Source: Escherichia coli
Lineage (GTDB): Bacteria; Pseudomonadota; Gammaproteobacteria; Enterobacterales; Enterobacteriaceae
NCBI RefSeq assembly: GCF_003790525.1
Contig: NZ_CP033635.1
Reading direction: 5' to 3' (one strand)
Length of the DNA stretch: 64,000 bases
In this document: in pieces, positions 57,401 through 60,400 of the stretch
Layout: every line of letters begins with the position of its first letter
Position numbering within the stretch: the stretch's first letter is position 1
Program-made: the position numbers

Positions 57401-60400
57401 GCGTGACGGATCGTAGTTGGTGTTAGCAGAGATCGACTGATCGATAAATTTCTGCATGATACCCACCAGTTGCAGATAGCCATCGTTACCCGGCATTTCC
57501 CACAGCAGTTCATAGGCGTCGTGCAGATGCTCGTAGTCCGGCACCACCTGGCGCAGAATACCGTCTTTCGACGCTTTGATGCTGACGTAACCACGCGGCG
57601 GTTCAATACCGTTAGTGGCGTTAGAGATCTGCGAAGAGGTCTCTGACGGCATCAGAGCAGAAAGCGTGGAGTTACGCAGGCCGTGCGTTTTGATTGACTC
57701 ACGCAGTGCTTCCCAGTCGTAATGCAGCGGCTCATTAGCGATGGCATCCAGATCTTTCTTATAGGTATCGATCGGCAGGATCCCTTTCGCGTAAGTGGTT
57801 TCGTTAAACCACGGGCACGCGCCTTGCTCTTTCGCCAGCTCATTAGACGCTTTCAGCAGGTAATACTGAATGGCTTCGAAGGTTTTATGCGTCAGGTTGT
57901 TGGCGCTGCCGTCGGAGTAGCGTTTACCGTGCTTCGCCAGGTAGTAAGCGAAGTTGATCACACCAATACCCAGCGTACGACGCCCCATCGCTCCACGTTT
58001 AGCGGCCGGGATCGGGTAATCCTGATAATCCAGCAGTGCGTCGAGTGCGCGAACCGCCAGAATTGCCAGCTCTTCCAGTTCATCCAGGCTGTTAATTGCG
58101 CCCAGGTTGAAAGCAGACAGCGTACACAGCGCGATTTCACCGTTCTCGTCGTTGACGTCGTTCAGTGGTTTGGTCGGTAGGGCGATTTCCAGGCACAGGT
58201 TAGACTGGCGCACTGGTGCAATAGCCGGATCAAACGGGCTGTGGGTGTTGCAGTGGTCTACGTTCTGAATATAGATACGACCGGTAGACGCACGTTCCTG
58301 CATCATCAGCGAGAACAGCTCAACGGCTTTCACACGCTGCTTGCGGATGCTGTCATCTTTCTCATATTTGGTGTACAGGCGTTCAAACTCTTCCTGATCG
58401 GCGAAGAACGCGTCGTACAGCCCCGGTACGTCGGACGGGCTGAACAGAGTGATATCTTCACCTTTCAGCAGACGGGTATACATCAGTTTGTTGATTTGTA
58501 CCCCGTAGTCCATATGACGCACGCGGTTGCCTTCCACCCCACGGTTGTTTTTCAACACCAGCAGGCTTTCAACTTCCAGATGCCACATCGGGTAGAACAG
58601 TGTTGCCGCACCGCCGCGCACACCGCCCTGAGAGCAGGATTTCACCGCTGTCTGGAAATGCTTATAGAACGGAATACAACCGGTATGGAACGCTTCGCCA
58701 CCGCGAATCGGGCTACCCAGCGCACGAATACGCCCGGCGTTGATGCCGATCCCGGCACGCTGGGAAACGTATTTAACAATCGCGCTGGAGGTGGCGTTGA
58801 TGGAATCCAGGCTGTCGCCGCACTCGATCAGTACGCAGGAGCTGAACTGACGAGTCGGGGTACGCACGCCGGACATGATTGGCGTCGGCAGCGAAATTTT
58901 AAATGTGGAAACCGCGTCGTAAAAACGCTTCACGTATTGCAGGCGCGTTTCACGCGGGTAGTTCGAGAACAGGCACGCGGCAACCAGAATATAAAGGAAC
59001 TGGGCGCTTTCGTAGATTTCGCCGGTCACACGGTTCTGCACCAGATATTTGCCTTCCAGCTGCTTAACGGCAGCATAAGAGAAGGTCATATCACGGTCGT
59101 GATCGATAAACGTGTCCATCTGCTTGAACTCTTCTTCCGTGTAGTCTTCCAGCAGATGATTATCGTATTTGCCCATCTCGACCATTTTCACCACGTGGTC
59201 GTACAGCGCAGGCGGCTCAAACTGGCCGTAGGCTTTTTTACGCAGGTGGAAGATCGCCAGGCGCGCGGCGAGATACTGATAATCCGGCGCATCACGGGAG
59301 ATCAGGTCTGCGGCAGCCTTGATAATGGTTTCGTGGATGTCAGAGGTCTTGATACCGTCATAAAACTGAATGTGGGAGCGCAGTTCGACCTGGGAAATCG
59401 AAACGTTATGCAGTCCTTCTGCCGCCCAATCCAGAACGCGATGGATTTTGTCGAGATTGATGCGCTCTGTGCTACCGTCGCGCTTTGTCACCAGCAGATT
59501 CTGATTCATGTATGTCGTACCTGTTTTTGGAATTCTTTCCGCAATAGTTTCATGCAGACTACCTGTAGTGAGGGAAGCTGCTTAGAACACTATATATAGG
59601 GGGTATGTTTGGGATTCACTGCAAGATAGTGTGAAAATGGCCCTCTTGCAAGTGCATAACTTTGTGGATAACTCAGGAAGGAAAAAGTGGCTTTCGCGCA
59701 CCTTAGGTCAGACAAGGTGTCCGGGAAAGTCAATGGGAAGAGAAAAATTTGTTAAAAATAACTGTTCGGCGATTTCTTGAACGGAAGAATAGGTTAGATA
59801 AATTGATATAGATGGTTTATTAATCTTTTTGCTAATGATTGCAAAAATTGATCTAAGCACGAGTCATCACATAATCTGATGTATCAGTTATGGTCAATAT
59901 ATAAGCGAATGTAAGCGATTGTTGATGTCGAAATGGTTGTTTTCTCTTCGGTTGTTGTTAAATGCGAAGCCATTTTGTTAATTTACCTTATATTATAAGA
60001 AAATTATTCATTACTTTAATTCAGTTTAAACATAACTGATATCCCTTAAGGTGATTAACTTGAATTATGACGCACTGATATTATTCATGAAATAATAACA
60101 AAATAGCCATTGCACCGGGTTGAACAATTTACAAAAGAAAAATAACCCATATCGTATAATGCGATTAAATATGCCGTCTTATAGAAAATGATGGTCAGAT
60201 TAATATGCGGATTATTTTTCTACGCAAGGAGTATTTATCTTTACTCCCGTCAATGATTGCATCTCTTTTCTCTGTTAACAGTGTCGCGGAGGTTTTGGAT
60301 TCATGCCAGGGATATGATATCAAAGCGAGTTGTCAGGCCAGCAGGCAAAGCCTTTCAGGCATTACGCAGGACTGGAGCATCGCCGATGGGCAATGGGTGA

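What the first reader, a model, noticed from the sequence alone, without database searches (positions are those of the whole stretch)
59700..60204. Long AT-rich leader upstream of the yfaL autotransporter with a perfect -10 hexamer
About 500 bp of very AT-rich DNA precede yfaL, ending in a TATAAT at 60155-60160 some 45 bp before the ATG. Such regions are typical H-NS-silenced promoters of cryptic adhesins; the region is shared divergently with the nrdA upstream sequence.
Basis: inference. Interest (0 to 1): 0.25.

Follow-up and report, generated by a model that had tools for sequence, protein, structure and literature searches.

The report
H-NS-bound AT-rich promoter region of yfaL
The AT-rich DNA in front of the E. 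coli adhesin gene yfaL is real, but it is already catalogued as an H-NS-bound, transcriptionally quiet "promoter island", and the perfect TATAAT in it is no more than chance would give.

Summary
The window is E. coli. nrdA is at 57224-59509 (-), yfaL at 60205-63969 (+), and the spacer between them is 695 bp. The AT-rich tract is real: 59784-60204 has 29% GC, the lowest of any 420 bp in the 64-kb window. TATAAT sits at 60155-60160, 44 nt before the ATG. It is expected by chance (0.83 per strand), has no usable -35 or TG extension, and is not conserved outside E. coli.

The K-12 homologue (96.7% identical) is published as promoter island 2342143_534 yfaL/ypaB. That island is listed as H-NS-bound in all ChIP-chip data sets compared. 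Genomic SELEX places RNA polymerase and H-NS in the same spacer. A genome-wide TSS map lists no yfaL start. I found no data on yfaL expression in an hns mutant.

My comparison adds that the spacer is two modules. 59510-59783 is the ancestral, conserved nrdA control region. 59784-60204 arrived with yfaL between ubiG and nrdA, and turns over fast while staying AT-rich.

The H-NS reading is therefore supported. The TATAAT promoter, the "leader" label and the "shared with nrdA" description are not. Already known; low interest.

The parts
59784..60204 (.). AT-rich upstream module of yfaL (421 bp, GC 0.29). This is the part of the spacer that came with the yfaL insertion.
   Evidence: It is the lowest-GC 420 bp of the window. 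It has no counterpart in species lacking yfaL. Identity to the Escherichia lineage L004 and to E. albertii drops to 0.38-0.59 here, against 0.84-1.00 (mostly 0.95 or more) on the nrdA side.
59720..60253 (.). Mapped position of the published K-12 'promoter island' 2342143_534 yfaL(-)/ypaB(-), reported as H-NS-bound.
   Evidence: From Table 1 of PMC3661553. Coordinates were converted with window = 59509 + (2342887 - x), anchored on the nrdA and ypaB coordinates in the PMC3415461 supplement. The K-12 spacer is colinear and 96.7% identical.
60155..60160 (+).
   Evidence: Present and chance-level. No -35 at a 15-18 bp spacer; best total PWM score 6.6. Reads TATAAT in K-12, O104:H4 and strain 122, CATAAT in B2 strain JJ1887, and CAAACT, CAAAAT or TGACGT in L004, L005 and L010.
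60128..60155 (+). Proximal promoter-like pair TTTACA-16-TATCGT. TTACAA (60129-60134) is the only invariant block near the ATG across all alleles.
   Evidence: invariant columns.
59848..59875 (+). Distal promoter-like pair TTGATC-16-CATAAT, the yfaL 'constitutive promoter' predicted from sigma-70 genomic SELEX. It contains the only GATC of the spacer.
   Evidence: PMC3946193 table; found independently; invariant in five E. coli strains. Only the TTGAT part is kept in the E. albertii-type alleles. GATC count.
59992..59997 (-). Second perfect TATAAT, on the minus strand, with TTAAAG at a 16-bp spacer. It points towards nrdA.
   Evidence: PWM score 10.6, the best minus-strand candidate.
59795..59804 (+). 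TAGATAAATT, a 9/10 match to the H-NS high-affinity motif TCGATAAATT (motif recalled from memory). It lies at the start of the inserted module.
   Evidence: Not beyond chance at this composition (P = 0.16).
59899..59918 (+). Tandem 10-bp repeat ATATAAGCGA/ATGTAAGCGA inside one of the few blocks conserved between deep alleles (59889-59920). A candidate direct-repeat regulator site; this is speculative.
   Evidence: Repeat D4; conserved block in alignment A1.
60189..60250 (.). Mapped position of the ChIP-exo peaks P16 and P17 assigned to yfaL in the K-12 GadEWX study. I read the table as the GadX list.
   Evidence: PMC4918353 supplement: 2342146-2342207, not differentially expressed, no TSS distance given. 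The main text lists yfaL among GadE/GadX targets.
60136..60152 (+). 5' arm of a predicted long-range RNA stem. It matters only if transcription starts upstream of 60136.
   Evidence: (I5). One compensatory pair (A-U in the window, G-C in three strains, broken in JJ1887). Weak z-scores.
60203..60221 (+). 3' arm of that predicted stem. It covers the yfaL start codon and the first codons.
59510..59783 (-). Ancestral nrdA control region (GC 0.42). It contains: TSS 59616; -10 at 59623-59628; -35 at 59646-59651; NrdR boxes at about 59554-59632; DnaA box at 59663-59671; HusR sites at 59674-59689 and 59709-59724.
   Evidence: TSS from the PMC3415461 supplement; promoter recovered by PWM; NrdR oligos from PMC12176259; HusR sites from PMC12844172. 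Homologous to the ubiG-nrdA spacer of Citrobacter, Klebsiella, Enterobacter and Kluyvera up to AAGAAATC at 59771-59778.
59637..59780 (+). ypaB, an annotated 47-codon ORF lying wholly inside the nrdA control region and ending 3 bp before the module junction.
   Evidence: RefSeq annotation. No Pfam family. Interrupted in E. albertii and in strain EC2001; not annotated in JJ1887. 'ypaB contains the promoter of nrdA' (PMC6242692).
60205..63969 (+). yfaL/ehaC, an AIDA-I-type autotransporter adhesin (1254 aa).
   Evidence: ORF; RefSeq name; Pfam Autotransporter beta-domain, AC_1 and PATR.
57224..59509 (-). nrdA, the class Ia ribonucleotide reductase alpha subunit, divergent from yfaL.

Best explanation
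The tract 59784-60204 is the native upstream region of the yfaL/ehaC autotransporter cassette. That cassette was inserted between ubiG and nrdA in the Escherichia lineage and a few relatives.

Because the tract is 71% A+T, it is packed with overlapping sigma-70-like hexamer pairs on both strands. It is also a preferred substrate for the nucleoid protein H-NS.

Shown for the 96.7%-identical K-12 homologue, from the literature:
- H-NS occupies the tract in vivo.
- Both sigma-70 holoenzyme and H-NS bind the spacer in vitro.
- No yfaL transcription start is listed in the exponential-phase TSS map.

Inferred: H-NS polymerises over the AT-rich module and occludes or traps RNA polymerase, keeping yfaL quiet until a counter-silencer or a strain- or host-specific signal acts. 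The ChIP-exo peaks assigned to yfaL in the GadEWX study (probably GadX), which sit over the start codon, point to one candidate.

The TATAAT at 60155-60160 is one of many -10-like hexamers produced by the composition. Nothing singles it out as the working -10.

The adjoining 59510-59783 is a separate, ancestral and strongly conserved nrdA control module.
For: - Identity of the locus: 100% to E. coli strain 165, present in 5422 of 5426 complete E. coli genomes, flanked by nrdA, ypaB and yfaL.
- Composition: lowest-GC 420 bp of the window.
- Promoter-like site density: 27 per 420 bp against a window mean of 4.8 (top 0.1%), fully reproduced by composition-matched Markov sequences (P = 0.52).
- Published promoter island with H-NS flag 'A', mapping to 59720-60253.
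- SELEX for sigma-70 holoenzyme plus H-NS in the yfaL-nrdA spacer.
- No yfaL TSS in the Kim 2012 list; the GadEWX peak table gives no TSS distance for yfaL.
- yfaL was put under an inserted constitutive promoter for biofilm assays in K-12.
- Horizontal origin: about 65 of the 80 Enterobacterales loci have ubiG followed by 350-630 bp and then nrdA. yfaL lies between them only in the Escherichia lineage L004, E. albertii, a Pseudocitrobacter MAG and isolate RIT691.
- Homology with species lacking yfaL ends at about 59783.
Against:
- All H-NS and RNA polymerase evidence comes from K-12, not this strain.
- Sequence hallmarks often attached to H-NS sites are not above chance here. The 9/10 nucleation-motif match has P = 0.16, and there is no 10-11 bp AA/TT phasing.
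- An O157:H7 yfaL deletion loses HEp-2 adherence, so silencing is not absolute.
- The yfaL row of the GadEWX peak table is marked 'N' for differential expression.
Confidence: 0.8

Rival explanations
1. One reading: TATAAT at 60155-60160 is the working -10 of the yfaL promoter. It would give a TSS near 60167 and a short leader of about 38 nt, repressed by H-NS.
For: - Perfect hexamer at a plausible distance from the ATG.
- Unchanged in K-12, O104:H4 and strain 122.
- The conserved TTACAA/TTTACA lies 21 bp upstream.
- Every allele has some promoter-like pair 30-50 nt before its ATG.
Against: - The hexamer is expected by chance.
- No -35 at a 15-18 bp spacer and no TG extension; PWM score 6.6, below at least 12 other plus-strand candidates.
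- The first base is changed in B2 (CATAAT).
- Not conserved in L004, L005 or L010.
- No TSS is on record.
Confidence: 0.15
2. yfaL is transcribed from the distal pair TTGATC-16-CATAAT (59848-59875). This would make most of the AT-rich tract a 5' leader of about 320 nt, whose 3' end may pair with the start codon (60136-60152 with 60203-60221).
For: - This pair is the 'constitutive promoter' assigned to yfaL from sigma-70 SELEX.
- It is the best plus-strand pair inside the AT-rich module, with PWM score 10.4.
- It is invariant in five E. coli strains including B2, and TTGAT is kept across deep alleles.
- A predicted stem buries the ATG, with one compensatory change.
Against: - The SELEX assignment is an in-silico pick within a binding peak, not a mapped TSS.
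- The -10 is not conserved in the E. albertii-type alleles.
- The whole-leader fold has z = -0.09 and the local stem z is -1.5 to -2.1 using mononucleotide shuffles.
- The compensatory pair is broken in JJ1887.
- No Rfam family matches.
Confidence: 0.2
3. The AT-rich module mainly serves nrdAB. It would act as an upstream H-NS loading or Fis/UP-type element that modulates the essential nrdA promoter, with yfaL silencing as a by-product.
For: - H-NS is cited as a repressor of nrdAB (review PMC4009431; PMC12176259).
- The SELEX authors argue that H-NS bound in a divergent spacer can affect both promoters.
- The module begins only 168 bp upstream of the nrdA TSS.
Against: - Species lacking yfaL have no such module, yet keep the nrdA control region.
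- The module diverges freely while the nrdA-proximal 274 bp stays 95-98% identical across Escherichia.
- An IS5-family insertion inside the module is tolerated in strain EC2001.
Confidence: 0.15
4. The region is a phase-variation switch, either Dam/OxyR-type as in agn43 or an invertible element as in fimS.
For: yfaL is an Ag43-family-like autotransporter. A preprint lists yfaL among genes with differentially methylated GATC sites.
Against: - Only one GATC in the whole 695-bp spacer.
- No convincing flanking inverted repeats: the best are 10-16 nt AT-rich matches.
- No recombinase gene nearby.
- The same orientation in all 5420 or more genomes matched.
Confidence: 0.02

Closest known systems
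E. coli K-12 'promoter islands' (Panyukov & Ozoline 2013, PMC3661553), specifically island 2342143_534 yfaL/ypaB
   Same: This is the same locus. It is colinear and 96.7% identical, has the same extent (maps to 59720-60253), shows an extreme density of promoter-like signals, and is associated with a horizontally acquired gene.
   Different: This is another strain. H-NS and RNA polymerase occupancy were not measured in it. My density test uses a simple PWM rather than the authors' PlatProm algorithm.
H-NS xenogeneic silencing of AT-rich, horizontally acquired adhesin loci. Other islands in the same published list lie by ycgV, yadN, ecpR, elfA and fim.
   Same: An AT-rich upstream tract, a surface adhesin gene absent from sister genera at the syntenic site, and reported H-NS occupancy.
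   Different: De-repression of yfaL in an hns mutant and a defined counter-silencer have not been shown in anything I could read.
agn43 (flu) regulatory region of the related Ag43 autotransporter
   Same: An upstream control region of a self-associating or adhesin autotransporter whose expression is normally limited.
   Different: agn43 uses three GATC sites in an OxyR operator for Dam-dependent phase variation (established knowledge). Here there is one GATC and no such arrangement.
Long divergent stress or adhesin spacers such as csgD-csgB or nanC-fimB (PMC3946193)
   Same: A long type-A divergent spacer with sigma-70 holoenzyme and H-NS sites.
   Different: In those spacers both promoters belong to one regulon. 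Here an ancestral essential-gene promoter (nrdA) abuts an imported silenced module.

Membership tests
Promoter island (Ozoline laboratory definition) | At least 300 bp with an extreme density of predicted transcription start points | tested here: met
   By proxy: 27 sigma-70-like pairs (PWM score 6 or more, both strands) in 59784-60203, against a window mean of 4.8. This is the top 0.1% of 420-bp windows. PlatProm itself was not available.
Promoter island (Ozoline laboratory definition) | Coincides with a catalogued island | tested here: met
   Island 2342143_534 yfaL(-)/ypaB(-) maps to window 59720-60253 using the nrdA and ypaB anchors and the colinear K-12 alignment.
Promoter island (Ozoline laboratory definition) | Binds RNA polymerase but gives little or no full-length transcript | not testable with these tools
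   Literature only: sigma-70 holoenzyme SELEX peak in the spacer; no yfaL TSS listed.
Promoter island (Ozoline laboratory definition) | Associated with a horizontally acquired gene | tested here: met
   yfaL lies between ubiG and nrdA in only 4 of the 80 Enterobacterales loci. About 65 of them have ubiG directly upstream of nrdA.
H-NS-silenced xenogeneic promoter region | A+T content far above the genome background | tested here: met
   GC 0.29 against 0.518; the lowest of the window.
H-NS-silenced xenogeneic promoter region | H-NS occupancy in vivo | not testable with these tools
   Literature for K-12: flag 'A', meaning all ChIP-chip studies compared; H-NS SELEX site in the spacer.
H-NS-silenced xenogeneic promoter region | De-repression when hns (and stpA) is removed | not tested
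   No statement found in the searchable main texts.
H-NS-silenced xenogeneic promoter region | High-affinity nucleation motif or phased A-tract curvature | tested here: inconclusive
   There is a 9/10 match, TAGATAAATT, at 59795-59804, but P = 0.16 at this composition. There is no excess AA/TT power at 10-11 bp. TpA steps are 11.2% against 4.4%.
Canonical sigma-70 promoter using TATAAT 60155-60160 | Consensus -10 hexamer | tested here: met
   However, 0.83 copies per strand are expected by chance.
Canonical sigma-70 promoter using TATAAT 60155-60160 | A -35 hexamer at 16-18 bp, or a TGn extended -10 | tested here: not met
   The -35 candidates are AAAAGA, CAAAAG and ACAAAA, and the best is TACAAA at 19 bp. 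TCG precedes the hexamer.
Canonical sigma-70 promoter using TATAAT 60155-60160 | Conservation among alleles | tested here: inconclusive
   Kept in 4 of 5 E. coli strains, CATAAT in B2, absent in L004, L005 and L010.
Canonical sigma-70 promoter using TATAAT 60155-60160 | Mapped transcription start 6-8 nt downstream | not testable with these tools
   None is on record in the sources I could read.
Dam/OxyR phase-variable autotransporter promoter (agn43 type) | A cluster of GATC sites within the operator | tested here: not met
   There is a single GATC, at 59850-59853, in the 695-bp spacer.
Structured cis-regulatory RNA leader | An Rfam family match or a fold more stable than shuffles | tested here: not met
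   The only Rfam hit is IS605-orfB-I at 21.5 bits against a gathering score of 94.2. The fold z-score is -0.09.

The most novel reading that the evidence does not exclude
About 540 bp (59784-60320: the AT-rich module plus roughly the first 40 codons of yfaL) may behave as a replaceable or hyper-evolving 'promoter plus signal-peptide' cassette. Its sequence is scrambled between Escherichia lineages (0.38-0.59 identity, against 0.93-1.0 in most of both flanks). Its length, its 26-29% GC and a few islands are kept: TTGAT, a tandem GTrAr-N5-GTAAr repeat, TTACAA, and an ATG-burying stem. This would imply selection for an H-NS platform with an embedded regulator site and a second, translational lock, rather than plain neutral decay.
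Probability: 0.1. Interest if true: 0.4.

Novelty: already known. Interest (0 to 1): 0.15.

Why it matters
As it stands this is a textbook case and adds little. It is a catalogued H-NS-bound promoter island in front of a widespread, mostly quiet E. coli adhesin gene.

It is useful as a caution: in 71% A+T DNA a perfect TATAAT carries no information. It is also a clean example of an imported silenced module butted against the control region of an essential gene (nrdA), with a junction that is sharp to the base pair.

If the conserved islands or the start-codon stem proved functional, they would give a handle on how yfaL/ehaC is switched on in hosts. That matters for O157:H7 adherence.

Tried and rejected
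- Rfam scan of 59300-60500: one sub-threshold hit, IS605-orfB-I at 21.5 bits against 94.2. Treated as chance.
- Terminator scan: none found.
- Phase-variation switch: one GATC, no credible inverted repeats, no recombinase.
- Structured leader: z = -0.09.
- H-NS nucleation motif and A-tract phasing: not above composition-matched controls.
- Promoter-density excess beyond composition: none (Markov P = 0.52-0.73).
- Mobile origin: the module has no relatives in phages. In the plasmid collection the matches are records of 0.15-4.9 Mb, three of them chromosome-sized, two annotated with yfaL under the match.
- CpxR link for the tandem repeat: no literature support.
- Small ORFs: none of 30 aa or more in 59861-60194.
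- Literature that could not be opened: Cendra 2013 (H-NS and nrd), Roux 2005 (yfaL), Thomason 2015 (TSS), and the supplements of Higashi 2016 and Srinivasan 2015. Conway 2014 has no supplements held as text.
- Conserved islands across deep alleles are leads only. MAFFT anchors on such matches, and runs of 6-9 invariant columns in 420 AT-rich columns are not clearly beyond chance.
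Full report
**Locus**

The window is E. coli. 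The 695-bp spacer 59510-60204 is 100% identical to strain 165. It is present with at least 80% coverage in 5422 of 5426 complete E. coli genomes.

RefSeq annotation places three genes here:
- nrdA at 57224-59509 (-)
- the 47-codon ORF ypaB at 59637-59780 (+)
- the 'AIDA-I family autotransporter adhesin YfaL/EhaC' at 60205-63969 (+)

Pfam finds the autotransporter beta-domain, the AC_1 autochaperone and a PATR repeat in the large ORF.

**Checking the observation**

The text of the finding is accurate. TATAAT occupies 60155-60160, the ATG is at 60205, and 44 nt lie between them.

GC falls from about 0.52 to 0.28-0.30. 59788-60207 is the single most AT-rich 420-bp stretch of the 64 kb: 0.288 against 0.518 overall.

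The hexamer itself carries no information:
- At this composition 0.83 TATAAT per strand are expected, and P of at least one is 0.57. The chance of one lying 20-80 nt before the ATG is about 0.10.
- A second perfect copy sits on the other strand at 59992-59997.
- No -35 exists at a 15-18 bp spacer. The best is TACAAA at 19 bp, and TCG rather than TGn precedes the hexamer.
- Its best PWM score is 6.6, outside the top twelve plus-strand candidates of the spacer.
- The same PWM recovers the real nrdA promoter, TTGCAA-17-TATCTT with -10 at 59623-59628. This serves as a positive control.

**What is already published about this DNA**

The K-12 spacer is colinear and 96.7% identical.

I anchored K-12 coordinates on nrdA (2342887) and ypaB (2342616-2342759) from the supplement of Kim et al. 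2012 (PMC3415461). This gives window = 59509 + (2342887 - x). With that map:

- **Promoter island.** Panyukov & Ozoline 2013 (PMC3661553, Table 1) list island '2342143_534 yfaL(-)/ypaB(-)'. Its H-NS column reads 'A', which the table footnote defines as bound according to all the ChIP-chip studies compared. Its other columns mark association with predicted foreign DNA. The authors describe such islands as binding RNA polymerase and forming open complexes while yielding almost no full-length RNA. They attribute this to H-NS.
- **Genomic SELEX.** Shimada et al. 2014 (PMC3946193) list the yfaL<HNS>nrdA spacer as holding a sigma-70 holoenzyme site and an H-NS site. They pick TTGATC-16-CATAAT as the yfaL promoter. 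This is window 59848-59875, found independently by the scans.
- **TSS map.** Kim et al. list a TSS for nrdA (2342780, window 59616, minus strand, 107-nt leader) but none for yfaL.
- **GadX/GadE.** The supplement of Seo et al. 2015 (PMC4918353) lists two ChIP-exo peaks for yfaL, which I read as GadX peaks. They lie at 2342146-2342207, window 60189-60250, over the start codon. They are marked not differentially expressed and have no TSS distance. The main text lists yfaL among GadE/GadX targets.
- **Expression in K-12.** Chauhan et al. 2013 (PMC3764049) inserted a constitutive lambda pR cassette in front of yfaL for their biofilm assays. A preprint refers to yfaL among cryptic K-12 adhesin genes.
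- **Against complete silence.** Deleting yfaL in O157:H7 EDL933 and SS17 abolishes HEp-2 adherence (PMC7864753).

I found no report of yfaL expression in an hns mutant. The paper cap stopped me from opening the relevant supplements.

**What the sequence adds: two modules, not one shared region**

I fetched 80 loci around nrdA from one genome per species.

- About 65 of them have ubiG, then 350-630 bp, then nrdA, all in the same direction.
- A yfaL homologue lies between the two genes in only four: L004, E. albertii (L005), a Pseudocitrobacter MAG (L010), and isolate RIT691 (L025, 54% aa). L004 is labelled E. coli but is only 92.9% identical in nrdAB, so I take it to be a divergent Escherichia lineage.
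- Five Mixta or Pantoea genomes carry other inserts of 3-8.4 kb at the same junction.

Alignment with Citrobacter, Klebsiella, Enterobacter and Kluyvera shows recognisable homology on the nrdA side out to AAGAAATC at window 59771-59778. There is nothing beyond that.

Alignment with L004, L005 and L010 breaks at the same place. The identity profile is as follows:

| Region | L004 and L005 vs window |
|---|---|
| 59400-59783 | 0.84-1.00 (mostly 0.95 or more) |
| 59784-60320 | 0.38-0.59 |
| 60321-60450 | 0.75-0.78 |
| from 60451 | 0.93-0.96 |

Yet spacer length (about 700 bp) and the GC gradient (0.25-0.29 next to yfaL) are the same in all of them.

Within E. coli proper the same contrast appears in milder form. 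In the AT-rich module, 994 genomes, including B2 strain JJ1887, are only 80-90% identical. The nrdA-proximal module is at least 95% identical in all chromosomes.

So 59510-59783 is the ancestral, strongly constrained nrdA control region. It holds:
- the TSS at 59616
- NrdR boxes
- the DnaA box TTATCCACA at 59663-59671
- HusR sites at 59674-59689 and 59709-59724

59784-60204 belongs to the yfaL cassette and is free to change, provided it stays AT-rich. Alternatively, it simply drifts at the AT-biased mutational equilibrium. I cannot separate these two possibilities.

**Is there anything special beyond composition?**

Largely no.
- Promoter-like pair density is the highest in the window: 27 against a mean of 4.8 per 420 bp, the top 0.1%. 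First-order Markov sequences of the same composition give 26.2 ± 6.3. The tool's own scan gives 6 against 3.6 ± 1.8.
- The 9/10 match to the H-NS motif TCGATAAATT (recalled from memory) at 59795-59804 has P = 0.16.
- There is no 10-11 bp AA/TT periodicity. TpA steps are 11.2% against 4.4%.
- There is one GATC, no credible inverted-repeat switch, no Rfam family, no terminator, and no ORF of 30 aa or more in 59861-60194.
- The putative 349-nt leader folds no better than shuffles (z = -0.09).

**Leads I could not settle**

A few blocks survive between the deeply diverged alleles:
- AAAATTGAT at 59844-59852
- 59889-59920, which contains a tandem 10-bp repeat ATATAAGCGA/ATGTAAGCGA. It reads GTGAr-CGnAT-GTAAA in the other alleles and looks like a direct-repeat response-regulator site.
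- TTACAA at 60129-60134
- CGGATTnTTTTT in the first codons

A predicted stem pairs 60136-60152 with 60203-60221 and buries the ATG. It has one A-U to G-C compensatory change among five E. coli strains, but it is broken in JJ1887. The z-scores are only -1.5 to -2.1 in the E. coli-type sequences and 0 to -1.9 in the others.

Each allele has some promoter-like pair 30-50 nt before its ATG, but never the same one.

These remain hypotheses. In AT-rich DNA both MAFFT anchoring and chance can produce such patterns.

**Mechanism**

Shown (literature, K-12): H-NS occupancy, sigma-70 holoenzyme binding in vitro, and absence of a yfaL TSS from the map consulted.

Shown here: extreme A+T content, promoter-like density explained by composition, horizontal insertion, and the exact module junction.

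Inferred: H-NS filaments over the module (and probably the AT-rich 5' part of yfaL, GC 0.35-0.39 at 60500-61000) keep RNA polymerase from productive initiation. Expression then needs counter-silencing.

Which hexamer pair is used when silencing is lifted is unknown. The rest goes to another site, or several, or the proximal TTTACA-16-TATCGT pair.

**Verdict**

The H-NS interpretation is right in substance and is already in the literature for this very locus. The 'leader' label and the 'shared with nrdA' description are not supported.

Novelty: already known. Interest is low.

Noticed in passing
window 59633-59760; L003 3001-3115; L089 1501-1627: Phage P7, several P1-family phages, and 234 places on E. 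coli plasmid records carry a copy of part of the nrdA control region, including the DnaA box and the TTGCAA -35. Identity is 95% in P7 and P1-like phages and 78% in a P1-like plasmid. In the plasmid examined the copy lies just upstream of the theta-subunit homologue (hot), in the ypaB/yfaL orientation.
   Followed up: partly
window about 59967-59970; L087 1304-2500: Strain EC2001 has an IS5-family element (ISKpn26) inserted in the AT-rich module at a CTAA target. IS5 insertions are a classic way of relieving H-NS silencing (from memory). ypaB also carries an internal stop in this strain.
   Followed up: partly
L004 about 9290-9312 (minus strand): In L004 (labelled E. coli, but only about 93% identical in nrdAB), the upstream ATG (ATGAATCAAAAAACGG) is out of frame by +1 with the conserved CGG-ATT-GTT-TTT reading frame. 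E. albertii (ATGAATAAAAAACGG) is in frame. This suggests a frameshifted or differently started yfaL in L004.
   Followed up: no
window 59637-59780 (+): ypaB lies entirely inside the conserved nrdA control region and ends 3 bp before the module junction. It has no Pfam family, is interrupted in E. albertii, and is not annotated in B2 strains. Its nucleotide conservation is better explained by nrdA regulatory sites than by coding. Even so, HusR-dependent and AZT-induced 'ypaB' RNA has been reported.
   Followed up: partly
window 58997 (+), inside nrdA: The K-12 TSS list assigns an antisense start at 2343399 (window about 58997, plus strand) to ypaB, with a 640-nt leader. Such a transcript would read through the nrdA promoter towards yfaL.
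   Followed up: no
L034, L058, L066, L071, L073 (ubiG-nrdA gap): Mixta and several Pantoea genomes have unrelated inserts of 3.0-8.4 kb at the same ubiG-nrdA junction. The site appears to be a recurrent insertion point across Enterobacterales.
   Followed up: no
window 60205-63969 vs L002 5196-8948: YfaL of this strain is only 82% identical in amino acids to K-12 YfaL, although the upstream spacer is 96.7% identical in nucleotides. Identity drops to 0.79 at 60451-60600. The passenger domain is mosaic and evolves independently of the promoter module.
   Followed up: no
window 59510-59616: B2 strains (for example JJ1887, and hits H16-H19) diverge in the nrdA 5' untranslated region: 0.86 identity, against 0.97 in 59617-59783 and 1.00 in nrdA. 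Their BLAST matches start only at query position 33.
   Followed up: no
window 16618-16764 and 18602-19810: The next most AT-rich stretches of the window (GC 0.29-0.34) are the yfbL-yfbK divergent spacer and the elaD deubiquitinase gene. These are likely further H-NS-type targets.
   Followed up: partly
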